Below, piece after piece: positions 31,258 through 39,865 of a stretch of DNA of 64,000 bases. This stretch comes from Patescibacteria group bacterium. GTDB taxonomy: Bacteria; Patescibacteriota; Patescibacteriia; Patescibacteriales; UBA12465. The stretch's first letter is position 1, and each line of letters begins with the position of its first letter. The notes beneath the pieces are model-generated. The model made no database searches. It saw only the letters and a program-made list of their open reading frames with translations, and was not told the origin of the DNA. The stretch is taken from the NCBI GenBank assembly GCA_034002925.1, contig JAVEZP010000003.1:11712-75711 (forward strand), written 5' to 3'. Position numbers and translations under genes: made by a program.

Positions 31258-33001
31258 GCCAATATTCTTCTTTGTCAGCTATTCTTCTATTAATCTCTTC
31301 TAACTCTTGATTTTTCTGCGGGTTATATTCCTTGTAGTGTTCTAAAAAATAGTTCAGTAATTCTTGTTTATAAATTTGCATTTTTTCCAATTCTTTCTCT
31401 AGGGATTGGATTTTTTTCTGTCTTTGTTTATTTTCTAGATAACGTTCTTTAGATATTTTTTTCTCAATACTAGGAGTAATTTTGTTTTCCAGTTGTTCTT
31501 TTTGCTGAATTTTAAGATGACGTTCTAAGTGTTTGATATAATCAGCGTAATCTTCATGTTTAGGTTTAGCTTTGCCATTATCTATTTCTAAAATAGTAGT
31601 TGCAATCTTCTGAGAAAAAGAACGATCATGACTAGCAAAAAGAACACTCCCTTCATAGCTTTTTAAAGCTTTTGCTAGAGCTTCACTAGTTTCAAAATCA
31701 AGATGACAAGTTACTTCATCAAGTAATAAAACATCTGGTTTAGAAAGTAGAATGGCGGCTAGAAGTAGTCTTGACTTTTCTCCTCCTGAGAGAACGCTAA
31801 TGACTTTTTTAAGTTCTTCATCTTTAAAGAGAAAATCACCCGCCATTTTTAAAACTGCTTCGGTTTTAATTTCGGGTGAAGCAAGGCGACGAAGATAGTC
31901 TCCAGCTTGTTCTAGGGGGTTTAATTTTTCCATTTCTTCTTGACTGTGAAGGGCAATACGACTGTCACTTGACCAATGATATGAGCCAGAGAGGGGAGGG
32001 AGATTAGCACTTAAAGTTTTAAGCAAGGTGCTTTTGCCTTGGCCATTTAAACCTAAAATAGCTAGTTTTTCTCCGGCTTTAAGATCTAGATTAATATCCT
32101 CTACCACGCTTTTATCTTGATAGCCAATACTAAGATTAGTGCTTTTTAAAACAAAATTATTTTTTTTCACTACTTTTGGAATGTTAATCCTTTGTAGTCC
32201 GGCTTCATTTTCAATCTTTATCCGTTTTTCTTCTAGTTTGCTGATTTTTCTCATCATAGCCTGAGCTTGTTTAGCCTTGGAAGCTTTAGAACGAAAACGG
32301 TTGATAAAATCTTGCCAATGTTCTTGTTGTCTTTCTAAGCTTTCATTGGCTTTAATCATAGTGGCTAGTTTTTGAGCCTTGAAGCTCAAATAAGCTTCAA
32401 TAGGCCCAGGATAGTGATAGCAGCCGGTTTTAGATATTTCGATAGTTTCTTTGCAGCTTTTTTTTAGAAATTCTCGGTCATGAGAGATAATTAAGAAACT
32501 ACCGTTATATGAGCGTAAATAGTTTTCTAAAAGTAAGACGGTGTTTAAATCAAGATAGTTACTGGGCTCGTCTAGTAGAAAGAGATTGGGTTCTTGAAGG
32601 AGCATACCGCTTAGTTTAAGACGCATGCGCCAACCACCAGACAGGCTATCGGCTTTTTGTTCTAATTTATCTGCTCTTAATTCAAATTTACTCGCCACTT
32701 GTCGTGCTCTCCATTCTGCTTGACCACTTAATCTTTCTAAATATTGTAAAGCGCTTTCTTCTTTATTCCAGTCATCATGTTGTTTTAAATAGCCAATTTT
32801 AGCATTGTCGTGAATGATAATCTGACCCTCATCAGCTTGTTCTGTTTGAGTGATGATGCGAAATAGAGTTGATTTACCAGCGCCATTGCGACCAATAATA
32901 CCAATTTTCTGTTTATCGCTAACAGCAAAAGAAAGATTACTAAAGATTTTTTCTCCGCCATATTCTTTTCCTAGCTTTTGTACTTGCAAGAGAATGGGCA
33001 T
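31223..33001 (-). CDS. ABC-F family ATPase (two ABC cassettes, no TM domain)
   Basis: Two Walker A sites (GRNGAGKST, GLNGQGKST), two LSGG signatures and a C-terminal coiled coil. 35-nt convergent overlap with the SpoU gene. Confidence 0.85.
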   Translation of the reverse strand: MPILLQVQKLGKEYGGEKIFSNLSFAVSDKQKIGIIGRNGAGKSTLFRIITQTEQADEGQIIIHDNAKIGYLKQHDDWNKEESALQYLERLSGQAEWRARQVASKFELRADKLEQKADSLSGGWRMRLKLSGMLLQEPNLFLLDEPSNYLDLNTVLLLENYLRSYNGSFLIISHDREFLKKSCKETIEISKTGCYHYPGPIEAYLSFKAQKLATMIKANESLERQQEHWQDFINRFRSKASKAKQAQAMMRKISKLEEKRIKIENEAGLQRINIPKVVKKNNFVLKSTNLSIGYQDKSVVEDINLDLKAGEKLAILGLNGQGKSTLLKTLSANLPPLSGSYHWSSDSRIALHSQEEMEKLNPLEQAGDYLRRLASPEIKTEAVLKMAGDFLFKDEELKKVISVLSGGEKSRLLLAAILLSKPDVLLLDEVTCHLDFETSEALAKALKSYEGSVLFASHDRSFSQKIATTILEIDNGKAKPKHEDYADYIKHLERHLKIQQKEQLENKITPSIEKKISKERYLENKQRQKKIQSLEKELEKMQIYKQELLNYFLEHYKEYNPQKNQELEEINRRIADKEEYWLTLQSEAEANR

Positions 33002-33002
33002 A

Positions 33003-33491
33003 TTAATTACTGATTGCTAATATCTGATAGTTTTTGCCGTTAATTGAGACTATCTCGCCTACGCTTTTACCTAATAGGGCAGAGCCAAGGGGGGAGAGAT
33101 GAGAAATTATACCTTGACTAGGATTACTTTCGCTCCCACCTAAGATTGTATAATTTTTGTGACCACTAGCACTTTTCAGACTGACAGTATGGCCAATTTG
33201 AACGACTGAGATGTCTTCGTCACCAATAATTATTTCCGCTTTACGGAGACGATCAGTGATTTCAAGAATGCGTTGATTTAAGCCACGCAAACGTCCTTTG
33301 GCCAATTGATAGCCGGCATTTTCTGAGAAATCTCCCATTTCTGCCAATCTTTTGACTTCTTTAGCTAAGCTTGGTCTTTTAGCGGTGAGACGAACAATTT
33401 CAGCTTCAAGCTCCCGATATTTACTCGGGCTGAGATAGTAGTCTTTAGGGGCGAAGACACGGCTGTCGCCTTTTCTAATGGGTACACGCAT
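33003..33491 (-). CDS. greA: Transcription elongation factor GreA
   Basis: GDFSENAGYQLAKGRLRGLNQRILEI coiled-coil tip plus C-terminal globular domain (ISHLSPLGSALLGK). Confidence 0.9.
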   Translation of the reverse strand: MRVPIRKGDSRVFAPKDYYLSPSKYRELEAEIVRLTAKRPSLAKEVKRLAEMGDFSENAGYQLAKGRLRGLNQRILEITDRLRKAEIIIGDEDISVVQIGHTVSLKSASGHKNYTILGGSESNPSQGIISHLSPLGSALLGKSVGEIVSINGKNYQILAISN

Positions 33492-33641
33492 ATGTGAATG
33501 ATTATGTGTTTATCATAGAGGAATAGGGGTTTAAAGGCAAGGATTTGGCGGATAATATTGGTTTACAAAGTCGTTTAAAAAGAGTAAAATTAAGCCATAG
33601 AATAAAAATTTATCTTTTCGTTATACTCAATTTGCTATAAT

Positions 33642-34508
33642 ATGACTAAGCCAAAAAAAACCACAAAAACTAAGAAAAAAAGCAAAAAAATGTTAAATCC
33701 ATTTTTTACAGACAAAGACTTTAAATTATATCAAGCTAATAGTTTGGAATTTTTGGCTACTTTAGAAGAGAATTCGGTTGATATGATTTTTGCTGATCCG
33801 CCCTATATGTTGTCTAATGGTGGTTTTTCAGTGCATGCTGGGAAAATGGTTAGTGTTAATAAGGGAGAATGGGATGTTAGCAATGGCCTTAAAAAAGACT
33901 TTGAATTTCAATTAGCGTGGATTCAGGCTTGTCACAGAGTGTTAAAACCTGGTGGCACAATTTGGATTTCTGGAACCTATCATTCTATTTATCAATGTGG
34001 CTTTGCTCTTCAGGTAAGCAAGTTTCATATTTTAAACGATATTGCATGGTTTAAACCCAATGCTTCTCCTAATCTAAGTTGTCGCTTTTTTACAGCTAGT
34101 CACGAAACTCTCATTTGGGCAAGAAAAGAATTAGTGCATCCTAAAACAGGTAAAAAGATTAATACTAAACATAAGTTTAATTATGATTTAATGAAAAATG
34201 GTCATTGGCCAGAGGACTTTTTGAAAAAACCTAATTTACAGATGCGTAGTGTGTGGTCAATGGGTACACCTAAGCCAGCAGAGAAAAAACACGGTAAACA
34301 CCCGACTCAAAAACCAATAGATTTATTAGTTCGTATTGTAATAGCTAGTACTAATAAGGGTGATTTAGTTATTGATCCATTCACTGGATCCTCCACAACT
34401 GGCTTAGCTTGTGTTTTAAATGATAGAAAATTCATTGGCATCGATTTGGAGAAGAAATATTTGGAGTTGTCTGTTAAGAGATATAAGGATTTATTAGGCA
34501 ATAAATAA
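33642..34508 (+). CDS. Beta-class N6-adenine DNA methyltransferase, DpnA (M2.DpnII)-like
   Basis: DMIFADPPYMLSNGG (motif IV) precedes DPFTGSSTTG (motif I). NLSCRFFT, ETLIWARK and GKHPTQKP blocks align with my recollection of DpnA. A TATAAT hexamer abuts the 33642 ATG, so ATG 33690 (MLNPFF) may be the real start. Confidence 0.85.
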   Translation: MTKPKKTTKTKKKSKKMLNPFFTDKDFKLYQANSLEFLATLEENSVDMIFADPPYMLSNGGFSVHAGKMVSVNKGEWDVSNGLKKDFEFQLAWIQACHRVLKPGGTIWISGTYHSIYQCGFALQVSKFHILNDIAWFKPNASPNLSCRFFTASHETLIWARKELVHPKTGKKINTKHKFNYDLMKNGHWPEDFLKKPNLQMRSVWSMGTPKPAEKKHGKHPTQKPIDLLVRIVIASTNKGDLVIDPFTGSSTTGLACVLNDRKFIGIDLEKKYLELSVKRYKDLLGNK

Positions 34509-34516
34509 ATATAATC

Positions 34517-36187
34517 TTGAATTTTATGAATAATGACATATATGCTGGTTCATATCTATATTCTTCAATTATAGATAAAGTTTCAGCAAAACATTTAATA
34601 CCAACGTTACAGCGGCCTTATGTCTGGACGGATAAAAAACAGGTGAAAAAATTTATTGAAGACATTTTAACTAGCAATGATTATTATTTTATTGGTAGTT
34701 TGGTTTTTGTTTTGTCGTCGAACGGGACCGTTGGAAGGGATGAGATTATAGATGGGCAACAGCGGATGATAACCATATCTTTAATTTTGATAGCAATAAG
34801 AGATCTAATTATAAAGCATAAAAAGGAGAAAAAATTAAACGATGCCTTGCGTGAAATTAGTGGTTTTTTAGAATTTGTAGATTCATATGATTTAAAAAAG
34901 AGCCCAAGAATAGAATTTTATGACAAAAGAACAAATAGTTTTTATATAAAATTATTAAAAGGAGAAGCCGGATCTCCTGAAACAGAAACACAAAAAAGAA
35001 TTTTAGATAATTATAATTATATTTATAAAGAGTTAGCTAAAAAGTGTGGCAAAAATATTGATGTAGAGATCACGAGTTTTTTGAACAAGATAAAAACGCT
35101 TAAGGTTATTGCTATAAGTTGTACAAATAATTCAATAGCATATGAATTGTTTGAGAGTATAAACGCTACCGGAATGTCATTGGCTAGCGTTGATTTAATT
35201 AAAAATTTTCTTTTTAAAAATGCATCAAAAGATAAGTCTTTACTATCTAAAGTTGAAACAAATTGGCAAAAATTAGAGGATATATTTTCAGACAATAGAG
35301 CACTTTTCAAAACATTTTTAAGACATCACTGGATAAGCAATGGCTATTATATTAGTCATTCTGGTTTATATTCTGATGTTGAAGTAAAACATAAAGAAAA
35401 AAAAATCACTTCGGTAAGCTATTCTGAGGAATTAGCACATGATGCAGTTACTTATGTGTCGTTGAGGACTGCCAATGCCGAGTCTTTAAGCAAGATACAA
35501 AAATGGAAAAGATTTGATGCAAAATCCGTTAAAGAGGTTCTTGAATTTCTTTCCTTTTTGAGCGTAGATCAGGTTTATGCCCCAATTTTATTTTTTTATA
35601 AAAATGAAAGCAAAGATAAGTTTAAAAAAATGCTTAATAGATTAGCAGCTTTTCAATTTTTGTATAAGTATATTGCAGGAAGCCCAAGTTCTGCGGAGAA
35701 AATATTTGCTGGCTTTGCTAAAAATAACAAGGATGTTAATACACTATTTCAAGAATTGCACAATTTAGTAAAGAACGGTCACGACGAGTTCGTAGAAAAT
35801 TTTTCAAAAAAAAGCATTTACAAAGTATCTAAAAGTGGAGATGTGCAGTTTGTTCTAGAGAGATATGTTTTTTCTAAGGGCGGGGCTCGATCATTCAAAG
35901 AGCCCACTATAGAGCATATAATAAGTCAATGTGATAAAGATGATGATTATGTCCATGAAATTGGTAATCTTACTATTTTTGAACTTAGTGAGAATTCTAA
36001 ATTGCCGACAAAATTTAAAGATAAAATTAGTATTTATAAAAAAAGTCCATATAAAGAGCATCAATTAATTTTAAAATATGATTTTGATAAAAATTATAAA
36101 AAATCTATCAAAAGAAGAACTGAAGATATAGCATCAGATGTTTATGATATTTTTGTTAATATTTTAAAGACCGGTAAAATTATATGA
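34517..36187 (+). CDS. DUF262/DUF1524 (GmrSD-like) putative modification-dependent nuclease
   Basis: N-terminal DUF262 (IPTLQRPYVWTDKKQVKKFIEDI, IIDGQQR). C-terminal DUF1524 His-Me finger-like (TIEHIISQ...IGNLTIFELSENSK). Possible ATG start at 26 nt further in, 34526. Confidence 0.8.
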   Translation: MNFMNNDIYAGSYLYSSIIDKVSAKHLIPTLQRPYVWTDKKQVKKFIEDILTSNDYYFIGSLVFVLSSNGTVGRDEIIDGQQRMITISLILIAIRDLIIKHKKEKKLNDALREISGFLEFVDSYDLKKSPRIEFYDKRTNSFYIKLLKGEAGSPETETQKRILDNYNYIYKELAKKCGKNIDVEITSFLNKIKTLKVIAISCTNNSIAYELFESINATGMSLASVDLIKNFLFKNASKDKSLLSKVETNWQKLEDIFSDNRALFKTFLRHHWISNGYYISHSGLYSDVEVKHKEKKITSVSYSEELAHDAVTYVSLRTANAESLSKIQKWKRFDAKSVKEVLEFLSFLSVDQVYAPILFFYKNESKDKFKKMLNRLAAFQFLYKYIAGSPSSAEKIFAGFAKNNKDVNTLFQELHNLVKNGHDEFVENFSKKSIYKVSKSGDVQFVLERYVFSKGGARSFKEPTIEHIISQCDKDDDYVHEIGNLTIFELSENSKLPTKFKDKISIYKKSPYKEHQLILKYDFDKNYKKSIKRRTEDIASDVYDIFVNILKTGKII

Positions 36188-37101
36188 AATTTCTAAATTT
36201 TTACAAAAAAAAACTAAGTTGTCAAAATGAAGACGAAGTTTTTAATTATTTAATTAATAACTTAAAGCCAAGTATTATTCTTTGGTCTTATTTTGTTAAT
36301 TGGGATAAGGTTTTTAATAATACCAAAAAGATAGAAATAGCTTTAAATAATCTTAATTATTTAATTGGAAAAGAAGATTTTGATAGTGAATTCAGATTTT
36401 TAATTAAGGAAAATCCAGAAATTGCTAAAGTTATTCCTGCGTTGGTTGTGCGTGATGGAAGTAATACTAATAAATTTAATATTTTAGTTGATTATAAAGG
36501 TAAGAAACTAGTTTATGAAGAATACGATTTTTCTAAAAAAGAGATGACAGATGAGGACGTGGAAAAGTATCTTATGTTTGTAAAAGAGTCAGGATTAAAA
36601 GATTTAATTATCTCACAAAAAATCAAAAACCTTGTTGATTATATGATTGGCGTAGAGGCTGGGCTTGATAGTAATGGTAGAAAAAATAGAGGTGGCCATT
36701 CTATGGAGAGTATAATAGAATTTTTTATTAAAGATGTTTGTGAGAGTAAAAAATATAGCTATATTAAAGAAGCAACCTCAGAGAAAATAAATAAAGAATG
36801 GGGCTATGACGTTCCAGTGGACAAGTCTTCTCGCAGATATGATTTTGTTGTTAACACTGGCAAAGAACTTGTTATTTTTGAAACTAATTTTTATGGTGGT
36901 AGTGGCTCTAAGTTAAAGTCAACTGCTGGAGAATATAGAGACCTTTTTAATGTCTTAAAAGGTCAATATAAGTTTATTTGGATTACAGATGGTAATGGCT
37001 GGAAGTCTACAGCCCGGCCCCTTAGGGAAACCTTTAATCACAATGACTATGTGATTAGTTTAGAGATGGTTGAAAAGGGTATTTTAAATGAAATCTTTTA
37101 A
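36184..37101 (+). CDS. DpnII-family type II restriction endonuclease (predicted GATC)
   Basis: NLVDYMIGVEAGLDSNGRKNRGGHSMESI, RYDFVV, ETNFYGGSGSKLKSTAGEY, WITDGNGW and LRETF match the DpnII/MboI family blocks as I recall them. Start overlaps the previous stop (ATGA). Confidence 0.8.
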   Translation: MKFLNFYKKKLSCQNEDEVFNYLINNLKPSIILWSYFVNWDKVFNNTKKIEIALNNLNYLIGKEDFDSEFRFLIKENPEIAKVIPALVVRDGSNTNKFNILVDYKGKKLVYEEYDFSKKEMTDEDVEKYLMFVKESGLKDLIISQKIKNLVDYMIGVEAGLDSNGRKNRGGHSMESIIEFFIKDVCESKKYSYIKEATSEKINKEWGYDVPVDKSSRRYDFVVNTGKELVIFETNFYGGSGSKLKSTAGEYRDLFNVLKGQYKFIWITDGNGWKSTARPLRETFNHNDYVISLEMVEKGILNEIF

Positions 37102-37165
37102 TTAAAGATATAAAAATCATTAAGCTTGTTGAGATGAATTTAAAAACCGTTGATGTGCCACAAGG

Positions 37166-37963
37166 ATGTATAAAGTGTTTTATTATATGAACATTTTTAA
37201 AAAAGAAAAATCATATTCTAAACAAAAGATTAAAATTAATCTTATAAAACAGTGGATTTTTTATATTTTTGCCTTCTTGCTTATTGTTGTTTACCTCTCT
37301 TATTCTATTAATAAATATAGACATTTAGATCGAGATACGCTTAGGGTTTTTGCTTTACTAACATTAGGCTTTCTTTCTGGTATATTGTCTTTGTGGTTTT
37401 TAAAGTTAATTAATAATTTCTTTTCAAAAACTGATACTGAGATAAATAAGGCTAGGAAGGGAAACGAAGGAGAAAAATTAACCTATCTTAATTTAGTTAA
37501 ATTTCTGGGTAATAATTATAAAATTTATAAAAATTTTAAAATACCTAATCGTAAATTTGATATAGATTTTTTAATAGTTGGCCCTAAGGGATTAATAGTG
37601 ATAGAAGTAAAAAATAGTTCAAATTCCTATATTTTTACAGAAAAAGAAGCTAGGAGAATAAAGGGAGAAGGATATTCTAGGAAAACTACTCTTTTGTTTG
37701 GTAATTGCGATCCTCGTGTAAAGCTAATAAATCATTGCAAATCTTTAAATCATTATTTATATTCCTTGGGTTTAGTTGGTTTTAGGATTAAAAAGGCTTT
37801 GTTGTTTATTAATGGGAATATAAGCATTAATGATAAATCCGGTGTATATATTATTAATGGAATAAGCAAATTGCGTGAGTATATAGAAGGACTAAATTAT
37901 GACGATAGATTCACTGCAGAATTTTGTGAGACTGTTAATAGGAGCTTAATTGATAAAATATAA
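37166..37963 (+). CDS. NERD (nuclease-related domain) protein with two N-terminal TM helices
   Basis: GNEGEKLTYLNLVKFLG...KFDIDFLIVGPKGLIVIEVKN fits the NERD core (GxxGE...D-x-hhh...G-hhhhE-x-K). Preceded by two hydrophobic helices. Confidence 0.65.
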   Translation: MYKVFYYMNIFKKEKSYSKQKIKINLIKQWIFYIFAFLLIVVYLSYSINKYRHLDRDTLRVFALLTLGFLSGILSLWFLKLINNFFSKTDTEINKARKGNEGEKLTYLNLVKFLGNNYKIYKNFKIPNRKFDIDFLIVGPKGLIVIEVKNSSNSYIFTEKEARRIKGEGYSRKTTLLFGNCDPRVKLINHCKSLNHYLYSLGLVGFRIKKALLFINGNISINDKSGVYIINGISKLREYIEGLNYDDRFTAEFCETVNRSLIDKI

Positions 37964-38083
37964 ATCATGCCAAATTTGACCTCTTTTATATTTTATGTTA
38001 TATTAATTACAGATAAGAAATCTATTCTTCTCCATTATTAATAACGTTAAAAGTGACTGGCTTTTTTCCAGTTGCTTATTTTT

Positions 38084-39865
38084 ATGTCAAAGAACGAAAA
38101 AAATGTTCCTGCTGAGAAAATTGTCAGTTTCACAGAATTAGGAATTAAAGAAACTATTTTAAAAATTATCTCCGGTTTAGGTTTAAGCACTCCCACCCCT
38201 ATTCAACTACAAGCTATTCCAGCGGCTTTAAGTGGCCAAGATATTGTAGGCATCGCTCAAACTGGTACTGGCAAAACCTTTGCTTTTGGTATTCCCATGC
38301 TGCAGCAATTAGCTCTCAATAAGGGTAGGGGTTTAGTGGTTTTACCCACTAGAGAATTGGCTTCTCAAGTAGAAAAGAGTTTGCACAGTCTAGGTGGTCC
38401 TTTGGGATTACGTACCGCTCTTTTAATTGGCGGTGAGCCAGTATATCGACAATTACCAGCCCTAAGACGCCATCCTCATATCGTAGTTGGCACCCCAGGC
38501 CGTTTAATTGATCTCTTAAAGAGTGGTAATTTAAAACTAGATACCGTCTCAGTGTTAGTATTTGATGAGGCTGACATGATGTTTGATATGGGTTTTGCTC
38601 CTCAAATTGAAGAAATTATGAAGAGCGTCCCTAAAGAAAGACAAACTCTGCTTTTTTCCGCCACCATGCCTTTAGCCGTGATGAAATTAGCAGAAAAAAA
38701 TTTAAAAACTCCAGTCAGGGTGGAAGTAGCTCCAGCTGGAACAACCGCTGCTTTAGTGGATCAAGAATTATATATCATGAGCCGAGAAGAGCGTTGGCAT
38801 CAGTTGTTAGAATTACTTAAAGAATATCAGAACTCTGTCTTAGTGTTTGTTAGAACTAAACATGGTGCTTCTAAGTTGAGTAAAAAATTAAAAGAAAATA
38901 AATATCAAGCCGCTGAAATTCACTCGAATCTTTCTTTTCCCCAAAGACAGGCCTCTTTAAGCGGTTTTAAAAGCGGTAAGCATCGTATTTTAGTAGCCAC
39001 GGATGTGGCGGCCAGAGGTTTAGATATTAATGATATTGAATTAGTTTTAAATTATGACTTACCTGATAATTCTGAAGATTATGTTCATCGCATTGGTCGA
39101 ACAGCTAGAGCCGGTAAAAAGGGTAAGGCTATTTCTTTTGCCACCCCTCAACAAGGAAGAGAAGTAAAGAGAATTGAACAGCTAATTCGAAAAAATTTAC
39201 CTAGTAAAAGAATTAACAGCTCTCATCCTGAAGCAGTTAGTTTTGTGTCTAATAATTTTGATCGCAGTGGCAGACCACAAATAATTCCGCGTCAAAGAGC
39301 TGATAGGGCAGTCATGCCGAGAAAAAAAGAGGGAACAAGGGCTAGGATTGAAAAAAGAGAGGAGTTTCAAGAAAACCTTAAACATACTAGTTTAGGTTTT
39401 AAAAAAAGAGCTAGTCAAATTGATCCTACCGCTACGCCTGATTATCTGCAGCCGCGTTCATCTCGGGGGGTTTCAGCTCAATATCAGTCAAGAAATAAAC
39501 ATACAGATAATCGTCAAAGAACTAAAACAACTAAATTTAATCATCAATCAGAGGAGGAAGAATTTGTGCCTTTAATGCATAATCCTAGTTTTGATGGTGG
39601 TAACCGTTTTGCCTTTCGTCGTAATTTATATCAATTAAAAGAAGCAGCTAAAGGTAGATCAAGACGTCCTTTTAAGAAAAGAGAGACTCAAGACAGGCCG
39701 ACTGATAAAGATGTAAAGAGAGACAGACCAGCTGCTCGAGCTGACTTTAAAACTGGTGTCAGAAGTTCTGGTTCAAAGGTTTTTAAACCTAAAGAAAAGG
39801 GCGGTGATGATAGTCGTAGCTTTAGGGCTAAATCTTTTACCCCTCGCTATAAAAGAAAAAAATAA
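38084..39865 (+). CDS. DEAD-box ATP-dependent RNA helicase with a basic C-terminal extension of about 200 aa
   Basis: Q motif, AQTGTGKT, PTRELA, DEAD, SAT, VATDVAARGLDI, HRIGRTARAG. Arg/Lys-rich tail. Confidence 0.9.
   Translation: MSKNEKNVPAEKIVSFTELGIKETILKIISGLGLSTPTPIQLQAIPAALSGQDIVGIAQTGTGKTFAFGIPMLQQLALNKGRGLVVLPTRELASQVEKSLHSLGGPLGLRTALLIGGEPVYRQLPALRRHPHIVVGTPGRLIDLLKSGNLKLDTVSVLVFDEADMMFDMGFAPQIEEIMKSVPKERQTLLFSATMPLAVMKLAEKNLKTPVRVEVAPAGTTAALVDQELYIMSREERWHQLLELLKEYQNSVLVFVRTKHGASKLSKKLKENKYQAAEIHSNLSFPQRQASLSGFKSGKHRILVATDVAARGLDINDIELVLNYDLPDNSEDYVHRIGRTARAGKKGKAISFATPQQGREVKRIEQLIRKNLPSKRINSSHPEAVSFVSNNFDRSGRPQIIPRQRADRAVMPRKKEGTRARIEKREEFQENLKHTSLGFKKRASQIDPTATPDYLQPRSSRGVSAQYQSRNKHTDNRQRTKTTKFNHQSEEEEFVPLMHNPSFDGGNRFAFRRNLYQLKEAAKGRSRRPFKKRETQDRPTDKDVKRDRPAARADFKTGVRSSGSKVFKPKEKGGDDSRSFRAKSFTPRYKRKK

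What the first reader, a model, noticed from the sequence alone, without database searches (positions are those of the whole stretch)
33642..37963. Four-gene, AT-rich restriction island: DpnA-like MTase, GmrSD-like protein, DpnII-family REase, membrane NERD protein
Four same-strand genes sit between greA and a DEAD-box helicase. Gaps are tiny or negative: 8 nt, a -4 nt overlap, and 64 nt. All four belong to nucleic-acid-targeting families. Together they combine methylation-sensitive restriction (DpnII type, predicted GATC), a family usually tied to modification-dependent restriction (DUF262/DUF1524, as in GmrSD/BrxU/SspE), and a NERD nuclease-like protein. By eye, the 34.5-38.0 kb stretch is clearly more AT-rich and more Lys/Asn/Ile-biased than the flanking housekeeping genes, which suggests horizontal acquisition. 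I do not know this exact four-gene arrangement as a described system. It may be a composite defence operon rather than independent neighbours.
Basis: partly seen in the sequence, partly recalled or inferred. Interest (0 to 1): 0.72.

Follow-up and report, generated by a model that had tools for sequence, protein, structure and literature searches.

The report
GATC restriction cassette with embedded GmrSD-like nuclease
A small, horizontally mobile defence island in a Patescibacteria genome carries a GATC-type restriction-modification pair with a GmrSD-family nuclease wedged between its two genes. This three-gene unit recurs across many uncultured lineages, but the fourth gene (a membrane NERD nuclease) is only a variable neighbour.

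Summary
Four same-strand ORFs lie between greA and a DEAD-box helicase: a beta-class N6-adenine MTase, a DUF262/DUF1524 GmrSD-like protein ("G"), a DpnII-family REase and a two-TM NERD protein. Genes 2-4 are the most AT-rich stretch of the window.

The "four-gene composite" reading is only partly right. Relatives of G at 32-100% identity were sampled in 11 distinct clusters. In 11/11, G sits in a tightly packed, same-strand GATC-type R-M cassette. Gene order, MTase class (Dam-like D12 and/or DpnA-like beta) and nuclease family (DpnII, MutH-like, or an unnamed ~200-aa PD..ExK family) all vary.

Only 2-3 of 80 distant DUF262/DUF1524 loci, and 0 of 80 viral ones, show this arrangement. NERD is absent from every other cassette.

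G keeps the DGQQR NTPase and E-H...N His-Me nuclease motifs. Its best PADLOC model is HEC-06, and its closest solved structure is the phosphorothioate-sensing DndI.

Best reading: a conserved M-G-R module in which G is a second restriction arm. It could be an autonomous Type IV-like enzyme (slightly favoured) or a nuclease licensed by GATC methylation, as DndI is by phosphorothioate. This is a new variant of the known habit of embedding GmrSD-like genes in defence systems, and I found no description of it for Type II GATC cassettes.

The parts
33562..33641 (+). Candidate promoter region upstream of the MTase gene. It holds TTTACA-17-TAAAAT (33562-33590) and an extended -10, TGcTATAAT (33633-33641), that abuts the annotated ATG.
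   Evidence: Consensus scan and direct reading of the sequence. This is pattern evidence only. If the extended -10 is used, the real MTase start may be Met17 at 33690.
33642..34508 (+). Beta-class (DpnA/LlaDCHIB-like) N6-adenine DNA methyltransferase, predicted to be GATC-specific. DPPY lies near the N-terminus and FTGSSTTG near the C-terminus.
   Evidence: PF01555 E 2.4e-53. PADLOC MTase_II 2.4e-90. 47% identity to the second MTase of the LlaDCHI cassette on pSRQ700. Nearest PDB sequences are CcrM and other beta-class MTases. dN/dS against L002 is 0.017.
34526..36187 (+). GmrSD-family protein 'G', 553 aa (alternative TTG start at 34517). N-terminal DUF262 ParB-like NTPase with DGQQR (D76-R80), a helical middle domain, and a C-terminal DUF1524 His-Me nuclease (E463-H464...N481).
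   Evidence: PF03235 and PF07510. PADLOC HEC-06 8.1e-63, full length. Invariant motif residues across 39 homologues. AF2 model pLDDT 87.7. Best PDB match is DndI 9JFL by sequence profile (1e-27) and by fold (E 4.6e-14, TM 0.49). dN/dS 0.051.
36088..36092 (+). A5 homopolymer inside G. Two other assemblies of the same population (L001, L084) have A4, which frameshifts G after residue 522.
   Evidence: Pairwise alignment of the window against L001 and L084, and split tblastn hits. Whether this is a real polymorphism or an assembly error is not known.
36184..37101 (+). DpnII-family Type II restriction endonuclease, predicted to cut GATC. Its start overlaps the stop of G by 4 nt (ATGA).
   Evidence: PF04556 1.5e-90, profile positions 2-278 of 278. 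PADLOC REase_II 1e-87. 39% identity over 295 aa to R.LlaDCHI of pSRQ700. The same 4-nt overlap is present in L002 and L003. dN/dS 0.074.
37166..37963 (+). Membrane-anchored NERD (PD-(D/E)xK-like) protein with two N-terminal hydrophobic helices. It is variable island cargo, not part of the conserved module. An alternative start lies at 37187.
   Evidence: PF08378 2.1e-14. No PADLOC hit. Invariant F-D-x-D...G-x-x-G...E-V-K-N across 14 homologues. It is absent from all other G cassettes. A 60% homologue lies in an RVT_1/258aa/NERD/258aa/HNH_3 context.
37953..37996 (+). AU-rich inverted repeat straddling the NERD stop codon, possibly a weak terminator of the four-gene transcription unit.
   Evidence: Inverted repeat I7, 22-nt arms, 82% complementary. 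RNA fold -8.4 kcal/mol, z -2.5. The evidence is weak. The GC-rich terminator-like site at 38051-38077 lies inside the helicase leader.

Best explanation
**What it is**
- The locus is a small mobile defence island in a Patescibacteria (CPR) chromosome.
- Its core is a conserved, probably co-transcribed three-gene module.
- The module is a GATC-specific Type II R-M pair (a DpnA-like beta-class m6A methyltransferase and a DpnII-family endonuclease) with a GmrSD-family enzyme (G) inserted between M and R.
- G has a DUF262 NTPase and a DUF1524 His-Me nuclease, and resembles HEC-06 and DndI.
- The downstream membrane NERD nuclease is separate, exchangeable cargo.

**How it most likely works**
- *Established family knowledge plus homology.* M methylates host GATC, and R cuts unmethylated GATC on incoming DNA.
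- *Inferred.* G is a second, NTP-driven restriction arm. It is kept in the same operon so that both activities are transferred and expressed together.
- *Inferred.* It catches invaders that the site-specific REase misses.

**How G tells self from non-self**
- I slightly favour the precedent set by BrxU and HEC-06: G is an autonomous, modification-dependent (Type IV-like) nuclease that attacks hypermodified phage DNA refractory to DpnII-type cleavage (about 0.45).
- The alternative is a methylation-licensed, DndI/SspE-like logic (about 0.35). It is listed as the first rival.

**Shown versus inferred**
- Shown: gene content, motif integrity, purifying selection, conserved linkage, mobility, and the non-conservation of NERD.
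- Inferred: GATC specificity, co-transcription, and everything about G's substrate.
For: - **Family and motif assignments.**
- **GATC inference.** 39% and 47% identity to the R and M2 of the LlaDCHI cassette of pSRQ700. In other G cassettes DpnII is replaced by MutH-family nucleases.
- **Linkage.** 11/11 sampled clusters of the G clade (32-100% identity) lie in same-strand, tightly packed cassettes with Dam-like and/or DpnA-like MTases. The orders seen are M-G-R, M-G-R-M, M-R-G and G-M-R-M.
- **Contrast with distant relatives.** 2-3 of 80 distant DUF262/DUF1524 loci and 0 of 80 viral loci show this. Fisher p = 8e-12, ignoring phylogenetic non-independence.
- **Neighbours of distant relatives.** They are heterogeneous: Type I R-M, ResIII, Eco57I and PglZ.
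- **Flanking cargo turns over quickly.** NERD here is replaced by a 150-aa protein plus Mrr at 88% G identity, while the trio persists down to 32% identity.
- **Purifying selection on all three genes.** dN/dS 0.02-0.07.
- **Precedent for autonomous embedded GmrSD-like defences.** HEC-06 (the best PADLOC model, 8e-63) protects E. coli as a single gene and needs the same DGQQR and EH residues. BrxU in BREX works independently of BREX (bioRxiv 10.1101/2024.01.29.577857; PMC12707154).
- **Canonical GATC cassettes in cultured bacteria work without G**.
Against: - No experiment exists for any member of this clade. All members come from uncultured CPR/DPANN-type contigs, and no close homologue was found on plasmids or phages.
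- An autonomous Type IV enzyme has no obvious need for exclusive linkage to one R-M specificity. BrxU and HEC-05/06 relatives occur in several host systems, whereas this clade was never seen outside GATC cassettes.
- The nearest solved structure is the mark-sensing DndI, then SspE, and only then BrxU.
- HEC-06 was tested in E. coli K-12 MG1655 dRM, which I take to be dam+ (my own knowledge; the text read does not state dam status), so its autonomy from GATC methylation was not actually tested.
- The sample is 11 clusters, so the upper 95% bound on unlinked members is 24%.
- Cassette type partly tracks the G tree, so the number of independent events is below 11.
- Co-transcription is inferred only from spacing and from the absence of internal terminator-like sites.
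Confidence: 0.5

Rival explanations
1. **Methylation-licensed second nuclease (DndI/SspE logic transferred from phosphorothioate to m6A).**
- G scans DNA and uses the cassette's GATC m6A mark as the self signal.
- Sensing the mark stimulates its NTPase. G then either leaves self DNA (DndI-like) or becomes active (SspE-like).
- It nicks or cuts DNA that lacks the mark.
- It would therefore restrict invaders that escape DpnII-type cleavage by having few GATC sites, and it could not exist without the MTase.
For: - Linkage to GATC MTases is exclusive, in 11/11 clusters plus two distant lineages (L004, L041). It survives changes of MTase class, nuclease family and gene order, so the common denominator is the DNA mark rather than any one protein partner.
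- An MTase gene precedes G in 10 of 11 clusters, and is directly upstream of G in 8 of them.
- The closest solved relative by both sequence profile and fold is DndI (9JFL), then SspE. Both read the host's own mark (PMC11662687).
- Two restriction arms sharing one modification module is established for the Dnd and Ssp systems (PMC11662687; PMC12707154).
Against: - No DUF262/DUF1524 protein is known to read a base methyl mark.
- The position aligned to DndI's PT-sensing Tyr25 is an invariant Leu in this clade, so any sensing pocket would have to differ.
- HEC-06, the best-matching defence model, works without its native methylase.
- In the P0026 and L041 cassettes G is the first gene, ahead of the MTase. 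That order is risky for a nuclease that is toxic on unmarked DNA, although it is compatible with SspE-like activation.
- The linkage could reflect co-inheritance of one ancestral cassette, because cassette type tracks the G tree.
Confidence: 0.35
2. **Four-gene composite system.** M, G, R and the membrane NERD protein act together as one defence operon.
For: - All four genes are on the same strand, and the R-NERD gap is only 64-85 nt.
- No terminator-like site lies between R and NERD.
- NERD keeps its PD-(D/E)xK-type motif.
- NERD domains do occur in validated defence systems such as HEC-02 and MADS.
Against: - NERD is next to the trio only in this strain (window, L001, L084). It is absent from the 10 other clusters and from L004 and L041.
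- At 88% G identity the slot holds a different membrane protein plus Mrr.
- The 60% NERD homologue lies between two unrelated 258-aa ORFs after an RVT_1 gene, with no R-M nearby.
- There is no PADLOC hit, and the MAD6 match is 27.9 bits against a cut-off of 460.
Confidence: 0.05
3. **No functional tie.** G is an unrelated defence gene that merely landed in an R-M cassette in a defence island. The M-G-R adjacency is hitch-hiking, or else G acts as a PrrC-like guard that fires when the R-M is inhibited.
For: - Defence genes cluster and shuffle, and GmrSD homologues are generally enriched near R-M genes (PMC4619093).
- Canonical DpnII, LlaDCHI and other GATC cassettes lack G.
- G carries a frameshift in two assemblies of this same population while M and R stay intact, so G is dispensable.
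Against: - The 11/11 linkage, against 2-3/80 and 0/80 in distant relatives, persists while flanking cargo turns over.
- G is under purifying selection (dN/dS 0.05).
- Junctions are translationally coupled: a 4-nt overlap here and in L002, and 1-4 nt in L091, L095 and L107.
- For the guard variant, the nuclease and MTase partners belong to different families, so a specific protein-protein sensor is unlikely.
Confidence: 0.1

Closest known systems
DpnII / LlaDCHI (LlaII) / MboI-type GATC Type II R-M cassettes
   Same: - A DpnII-family REase (PF04556, 39% identical to R.LlaDCHI) sits with a DpnA-like beta-class m6A MTase (47% identical to the second MTase of pSRQ700).
- Both genes are on the same strand, with M before R.
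- Many relatives of this cassette also carry the Dam-like D12 MTase, as the prototypes do.
   Different: - The window cassette has only the beta-class MTase.
- A 553-aa GmrSD-family gene is inserted between M and R.
- Cassettes in cultured bacteria (pSRQ700, Psychrobacter pYP14d, Mycoplasmopsis cynos) have no such gene.
HEC-06 (GmrSD-like single-gene defence found embedded in Hma systems; Payne et al., bioRxiv 10.1101/2024.01.29.577857)
   Same: - It is the best PADLOC model for G (E 8.1e-63, full length).
- The architecture is the same, and the same residues are essential in HEC-06: DGQQR Q79/R80, and E-H of the His-Me motif. These are invariant in this clade.
- Both are embedded in the same orientation inside a modification-based defence system.
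   Different: - The host system is a Type II GATC R-M rather than Hma. The paper surveyed Hma, BREX, DISARM and Type I, and does not mention Type II.
- This clade is exclusive to one kind of host cassette.
- No member has been tested.
DndI and SspE (phosphorothioate-sensing DUF262/DUF1524 nickases)
   Same: - DndI is the closest solved structure, with profile E 1e-27 and Foldseek E 4.6e-14 at TM 0.49. SspE is next.
- Both have obligate genetic linkage to a DNA-modification module, and both act as a second restriction arm beside another nuclease (PMC11662687).
   Different: - There are no dnd or ssp genes here. The linked modification enzyme is an adenine methyltransferase.
- The residue aligned with DndI's PT-sensing Tyr25 is an invariant Leu.
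- Sequence identity is only about 21%.
BrxU / GmrSD / RloF (Type IV GmrSD-family enzymes, often embedded in BREX or Type I R-M loci)
   Same: - The two-domain architecture is shared, as is the embedding of a GmrSD-like gene inside another restriction system for complementary coverage (PMC12707154; PMC4619093).
- One truncated clade member is even named RloF by its source (P0056).
   Different: - Similarity to BrxU is weak (Foldseek E 3.4e-4, TM 0.31, 11% identity). There was no BrxU hit in the sequence-profile search at E <= 0.01.
- The host system is Type II rather than Type I or BREX.

Membership tests
DpnII/LlaDCHI-type GATC Type II R-M | DpnII-family restriction endonuclease | tested here: met
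   PF04556 E 1.5e-90, full profile. 39% identity over 295 aa to the REase of pSRQ700.
DpnII/LlaDCHI-type GATC Type II R-M | Adjacent, same-strand cognate N6-adenine MTase of the DpnA (beta) type | tested here: met
   PF01555 2.4e-53. 47% identity to the second MTase of pSRQ700.
DpnII/LlaDCHI-type GATC Type II R-M | Two MTases as in the prototypes (Dam-like D12 DpnM plus beta-class DpnA) | tested here: not met
   The window island has no D12 MTase, and tblastn with two D12 queries finds only the beta-class gene. Relatives L086, L095, L098, L104 and L107 do have both.
DpnII/LlaDCHI-type GATC Type II R-M | Recognition of GATC, cleavage blocked by m6A | not testable with these tools
   Inferred from homology and from substitution by MutH-family nucleases in sister cassettes. 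GATC is the most depleted palindromic tetramer in the window, but only mildly (O/E 0.69).
GmrSD family (DUF262 + DUF1524) | N-terminal DUF262 ParB-like domain with the DGQQR motif | tested here: met
   PF03235 2.3e-34. D76 G77 Q78 Q79 R80 are invariant in 39 sequences.
GmrSD family (DUF262 + DUF1524) | C-terminal DUF1524 His-Me (HNH-like) nuclease motif | tested here: met
   PF07510 1.4e-11. T461, E463, H464, G480 and N481 are invariant and align to the EH...GN of DndI.
GmrSD family (DUF262 + DUF1524) | Modification-dependent (Type IV) cleavage stimulated by NTP | not testable with these tools
   No biochemical data exist for any clade member, and no cultured host is known.
HEC-06 (PADLOC) | Full-length match to the HEC-06 HMMs | tested here: met
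   PDLC04154 8.1e-63 (residues 23-545 against 21-563 of 569). PDLC04155 and PDLC04157 at about 1e-59.
HEC-06 (PADLOC) | Embedded in an Hma system | tested here: not met
   The neighbours are a Type II MTase and a REase. There is no helicase/methylase/ATPase triad.
DndI/SspE-type mark-sensing effectors | Genetic linkage to phosphorothioate modification genes (dndBCDE or sspABCD) | tested here: not met
   None are present in the island or in any of the 11 sampled cassettes.
DndI/SspE-type mark-sensing effectors | PT-sensing aromatic residue (DndI Tyr25 in the P-T-Y-Q-R motif) | tested here: not met
   The aligned position is Leu28, invariant in the clade (P-x-L-Q-R-P).
DndI/SspE-type mark-sensing effectors | Overall fold and closest structural neighbour | tested here: met
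   Foldseek top hits are 9JFL DndI (E 4.6e-14, TM 0.49), then 7DRR SspE (9e-11).
NERD-containing defence systems (HEC-02, MADS MAD6) | NERD domain with a conserved PD-(D/E)xK-like motif | tested here: met
   PF08378 2.1e-14. D125, D127, E140 and K142 are invariant.
NERD-containing defence systems (HEC-02, MADS MAD6) | Partner ATPase (HEC-02) or kinase fusion (MAD6) | tested here: not met
   No ATPase gene is adjacent. The MAD6 model scores 27.9 bits against a cut-off of 460. There is no PADLOC hit.

The most novel reading that the evidence does not exclude
The GmrSD-like clade is the first DUF262/DUF1524 effector coupled to a base-methylation mark rather than to phosphorothioate.
- It would be a DndI/SspE-like NTPase-nuclease that reads GATC m6A as 'self' and attacks DNA lacking the mark.
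- This would give Type II GATC systems a site-independent second restriction arm that defeats GATC-avoiding invaders.
- If so, the M-G-R cassette is a three-component R-M system with two mechanistically different nucleases sharing one methyltransferase.
Probability: 0.33. Interest if true: 0.8.

Novelty: new variant of a known kind. Interest (0 to 1): 0.55.

Why it matters
**What is already known**
- Embedding of GmrSD-like genes is documented for Type I R-M (RloF), BREX (BrxU) and Hma (HEC-05/06).
- Those embedded genes are thought to be promiscuous add-ons.

**What is different here**
- A whole clade of such genes is faithful to one kind of Type II cassette (GATC, adenine-methylating).
- That fidelity holds across deep divergence, across gene-order changes, and across non-homologous replacement of both the MTase class and the nuclease.

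**What follows**
- Either a very stable defence partnership is selected for complementarity.
- Or a nuclease family known to read phosphorothioate marks has been re-tuned to read a methyl mark.
- Both options can be tested directly with a small cloned cassette in dam+ and dam- E. coli.

**Side benefits**
- It adds a defence module typical of CPR bacteria, which mostly lack CRISPR.
- It flags an uncharacterised ~200-aa PD..ExK nuclease family as a probable GATC-cassette REase.

Tried and rejected
1. **Genome-contig scan with the G alignment.** I used these as a control set rather than as clade members.
2. **Metagenome-contig scan with the single protein.** It found only the same strain and the 88% relative. 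All 12 encoding-contig look-ups were then spent on sampling contexts, so the census stops at 11 clusters.
3. **Viral-contig scan and plasmid/phage tblastn.** Only relatives at 33% identity or less turned up. Some viral loci have a phage Dam 2-5 kb away, but none has an adjacent cassette.
4. **Insertion scars.** There are no convincing flanking repeats. One 15-nt 14/15 direct repeat at 33000/38000 is probably chance. No tRNA lies nearby, and no integrase is present.
5. **Codon usage as evidence of foreign origin.** It is not different from the rest of the window, so I rejected it as support for HGT. Mobility rests on the comparative data instead.
6. **The 194/202-aa nuclease-slot proteins.** I tried to identify them as MutH-like by hhalign and through Pfam and PDB. 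Nothing matched. They are 68% identical to each other.
7. **Rfam scan of 32.5-39 kb.** Nothing was found.
8. **dnaG-rpoD-RVT_1 hotspot of relatives.** It is absent from this window.
9. **PADLOC 'Orf5' models.** They also match G (2.6e-48). I could not establish which system they belong to.

Full report
**1. Observation**

- 33642-34508
- 34517-36187
- 36184-37101
- 37166-37963

All are on the + strand, between greA (33003-33491, -) and a DEAD-box helicase (38072-39865, +). The gaps are 8 nt, a 4-nt overlap (ATGA) and 64 nt.

Homologues suggest two small corrections:
- The second gene more likely starts at ATG 34526, giving 553 aa, the length of the 88% relative P0002.
- The NERD gene may start at 37187, giving 258 aa, as in P0121.

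Pfam confirms all four family calls and both flanking genes:

| Gene | Pfam family | E-value |
|---|---|---|
| M | N6_N4_Mtase | 2.4e-53 |
| G | GmrSD_N / GmrSD_C | 2.3e-34 / 1.4e-11 |
| R | DpnII | 1.5e-90 |
| NERD | NERD | 2.1e-14 |

PADLOC models call the first gene MTase_II (2.4e-90), the third REase_II (1e-87) and the second HEC-06 (8.1e-63, full length). NERD gets no hit.

**2. Composition**

- Genes 2-4 have GC 0.256-0.289 against 0.351 for the window. The MTase gene is at 0.337.
- The 1-kb bins at 36-38 kb are the lowest of all 64 bins, with z = -3.95 and -3.69.
- The 3.4-kb block of genes 2-4 (0.281) is below every non-overlapping block of the same length (minimum 0.314).
- The proteins are K/N/I-rich: 0.28-0.32, against 0.18-0.23 in the neighbours.
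- Synonymous codon usage is not deviant, however (z -0.2 to +0.95 against 47 other ORFs of the window).
- The GC drop is therefore mostly amino-acid composition. Composition alone is weak evidence for foreign origin.

**3. Specificity of the R-M pair**

- R is 39% identical over 295 residues to the REase of Lactococcus plasmid pSRQ700.
- M is 47% identical over 264 residues to that cassette's second, DpnA-like MTase.
- From my own knowledge, pSRQ700 carries LlaDCHI (LlaII), a GATC system related to DpnII.
- M has DPPY near the N-terminus and FxGxG near the C-terminus, which is the beta-class order.
- GATC is the most depleted of the 16 palindromic tetramers in the window, but only mildly (O/E 0.69).
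- GATC specificity is a strong inference. It is not a measurement.

**4. Mobility**

- The source is a Patescibacteria (CPR) genome, going by the names given by sources for the closest proteins.
- The closest relative of the island (M 94%, G 88%, R 79% identical) carries M-G-R with the same 4-nt G/R overlap, but at another chromosomal site.
- There it lies downstream of dnaG-rpoD-HD-RVT_1, and is followed by a 150-aa membrane protein and Mrr rather than NERD.
- A second strain (L001) has the island at the same greA/helicase site. It shows no mismatch over about 4.5 kb, whereas the adjacent greA has 20 mismatches in 253 nt.
- Both observations point to recent horizontal spread.
- No flanking repeats, tRNA or integrase were found.

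**5. The main result: G is a faithful passenger of GATC cassettes**

I looked up the genomic context of every relative of G for which look-ups were available.

| Cluster (G identity) | Locus / lineage | Gene order |
|---|---|---|
| window / L001 / L084 (100%) | Patescibacteria | Mbeta-G-DpnII-NERD |
| P0002 (88%) | L002 | Mbeta-G-DpnII |
| P0003 (65%) | L092 | Mbeta-G-(contig end) |
| P0008 (54%) | L088 | Mbeta-X-G |
| P0009 (54%) | L086, Peregrinibacteria | Md12-G-MutH-like-...-Mbeta |
| P0015 (49%) | L091 | HTH-Md12-G-DpnII fragment-DpnII |
| P0018 (41%) | L093, Pacebacteria | Mbeta-MutH-like-G |
| P0026 (41%) | L098 | G-Md12-DpnII-Mbeta |
| P0040 (42%) | L095 | Md12-G-DpnII-Mbeta-Mrr |
| P0060 (38%) | L104 | Md12-G-DpnII-Mbeta |
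| P0065 (32%) | L107 | Md12-G-X-HTH-95aa-Mbeta |

(Sources.)

- X is an unnamed ~200-aa family. The two copies are 68% identical, have no Pfam or PDB match, and carry a YDPD[IL]ECDDFVYEVKGRSW motif, that is, PD...ExK.
- In all 11 clusters the genes are on the same strand. All but one junction is an overlap or a gap of 32 nt or less; the exception is the 133-nt G-R gap in L104.
- The constant features are G plus GATC-type adenine methylation.
- The MTase class, the nuclease fold and the gene order all change.

**6. Controls**

- Of 80 distant DUF262/DUF1524 loci from GTDB genomes (28% identity or less), only L004 (Mbeta-MutH-like-G) and L041 (G-Md12-Mbeta-DpnII) are GATC-linked. L048 is doubtful.
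- The 103 immediate neighbours of the other distant loci are heterogeneous. The most frequent families are Type I R-M, ResIII, Eco57I and PglZ, with 2-4 members each. This matches the published picture (PMC4619093).
- Of 80 distant loci on viral contigs, none has an adjacent cassette.
- Fisher's exact test for 11/11 against 3/80 gives p = 8e-12.
- That p-value ignores relatedness. Cassette type partly follows the G tree, so the number of independent events is smaller than 11.
- With 0 of 11 unlinked, up to 24% unlinked members cannot be excluded.
- GATC cassettes in cultured bacteria (pSRQ700, Psychrobacter pYP14d, Mycoplasmopsis cynos) lack G.
- No close G homologue is found on plasmids or phages.

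**7. NERD**

- The fourth protein has two N-terminal hydrophobic helices and a NERD domain with invariant D125, D127, E140 and K142.
- It accompanies the trio only in this strain.
- Its 60% homologue lies between two unrelated 258-aa ORFs after an RVT_1 gene.
- It matches no PADLOC model. Its MAD6 match is far below the cut-off, at 27.9 against 460 bits.
- It is best treated as independent, exchangeable defence-island cargo. It may be co-transcribed here, because no terminator-like site separates it from R. Only a weak AU-rich hairpin follows its stop codon.

**8. What G looks like**

- Across 39 clade members, the DGQQR motif (D76-R80) and the His-Me residues (E463, H464, N481) are invariant. 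So are many residues of the helical middle domain.
- The corresponding residues are essential for defence by HEC-06.
- dN/dS against the 88% relative is 0.05. For M and R it is 0.02 and 0.07.
- The AF2 model is confident (pLDDT 87.7).
- Its best PDB matches are DndI (9JFL; Foldseek E 4.6e-14, TM 0.49), then SspE, then BrxU (E 3.4e-4, TM 0.31).
- The sequence-profile search gives the same order and no BrxU hit.
- DndI and SspE are DUF262/DUF1524 nickases that read the host's own phosphorothioate mark (PMC11662687).
- The position aligned to DndI's PT-sensing Tyr25 is an invariant Leu here. No dnd or ssp genes are present.

**9. Mechanism**

*Shown:*
- A conserved, selected, mobile M-G-R module.
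- Intact NTPase and nuclease motifs in G.
- NERD is not part of the module.

*Inferred:*
- M methylates GATC, and R cuts unmethylated GATC.
- G is a second, NTP-driven nuclease arm expressed from the same operon.

Two self/non-self logics remain open for G.

(a) An autonomous, modification-dependent Type IV-like enzyme that catches hypermodified DNA resistant to DpnII-type cleavage.
- This follows the tested precedents in methylation-based host systems. BrxU works inside BREX, and HEC-06 works as a single gene in E. coli.

(b) A methylation-licensed nuclease that reads GATC m6A as self, in the manner of DndI or SspE.
- This would explain why the clade is never seen away from a GATC MTase.
- It would let the cassette hit GATC-poor invaders.
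- HEC-06 was tested in E. coli K-12 MG1655 dRM, which I take to be dam+ (my own knowledge; the text read does not state dam status), so that experiment does not exclude (b).

I rate (a) at about 0.45, (b) at about 0.35, and other options (pure hitch-hiking, a PrrC-like guard, a four-gene system) at about 0.2 together.

**10. Comparison with what is known, and novelty**

- Embedding of GmrSD-like genes inside defence systems is known for Type I R-M (RloF), BREX (BrxU) and Hma (HEC-05/06).
- I found no paper linking DUF262/DUF1524 genes to DpnII or GATC Type II cassettes.
- The locus is therefore a new variant of a known kind. It is a Type II GATC cassette with a dedicated embedded GmrSD-family clade, so far confined to uncultured CPR-type lineages.
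- It is not a DpnII-prototype cassette in the strict sense, because it has one MTase and an extra gene.
- It is not an Hma-embedded HEC-06, and it is not a PT-coupled DndI or SspE.

**11. Caveats**

- Only 11 clusters could be sampled.
- All evidence on function is by homology and gene context.
- Co-transcription, GATC specificity and G's substrate are untested.
- G is frameshifted (A5 to A4 at 36088-36092) in two other assemblies of the same population. This could be a real loss-of-function variant or an assembly error.

Noticed in passing
window 33180-33432 versus 33433-37985 (compared with L001): Another strain's contig (L001) carries the island at the same site. It has no mismatch over about 4.5 kb, but 20 mismatches in 253 nt of the adjacent greA. 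This suggests a recent transfer or sweep of the island across diverged strains.
   Followed up: partly
window 36088-36092: The A5 run inside G is A4 in L001 and L084, which frameshifts the last 31 residues. It is either a natural loss-of-function variant of G (M and R stay intact) or an assembly error.
   Followed up: partly
window 33633-33641: An extended -10-like TGcTATAAT abuts the annotated ATG of the MTase. The Lys-rich first 16 codons may be leader sequence, and the real start may be Met17 at 33690.
   Followed up: no
L088:5371-5979 and L107:4562-5146: An unnamed ~200-aa protein family occupies the nuclease slot of two G cassettes. The two copies are 68% identical, have no Pfam or PDB hit, and carry the motif YDPD[IL]ECDDFVYEVKGRSW. 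It is probably an uncharacterised PD-(D/E)xK REase of GATC-type cassettes.
   Followed up: partly
L002:7592-8989 and L111:4732-6144: A 465-470-aa RVT_1 reverse transcriptase downstream of dnaG(-rpoD) marks a defence hotspot in related Patescibacteria. It is followed by M-G-R-Mrr in one genome and by 258aa-NERD-258aa-HNH_3 in another. It is not present in this window.
   Followed up: partly
L091:7698-7937: A 79-aa fragment of a DpnII N-terminus sits between G and the full DpnII gene. It is a remnant of duplication or recombination inside the cassette.
   Followed up: no
L093:3794-5874: A C5 cytosine MTase plus an HNH_2 nuclease pair lies 0.7 kb downstream of G on the same strand. That G orthologue therefore tolerates at least some m5C in its own genome.
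   Followed up: no
window 33000-33014 and 38000-38014: A 15-nt direct repeat, ATATTAATTAC[T/A]GAT (14/15), brackets greA plus the island exactly 5000 nt apart. It is probably a chance match in AT-rich DNA.
   Followed up: no
window 37976-38083: The helicase has its own promoter-like site (TTGACC-17-TATATT with TG). A GC-containing hairpin with a T-run (38051-38077) sits in its leader, just before the likely ATG at 38084. This may be a regulatory 5' UTR structure. There is no Rfam match.
   Followed up: partly
L086:5043-5252, L107:5181-5393 and L091:4874-5020: Small HTH proteins (48-70 aa) occur inside several sister cassettes, and could be C-protein-like controllers. None is present in the window cassette.
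   Followed up: no
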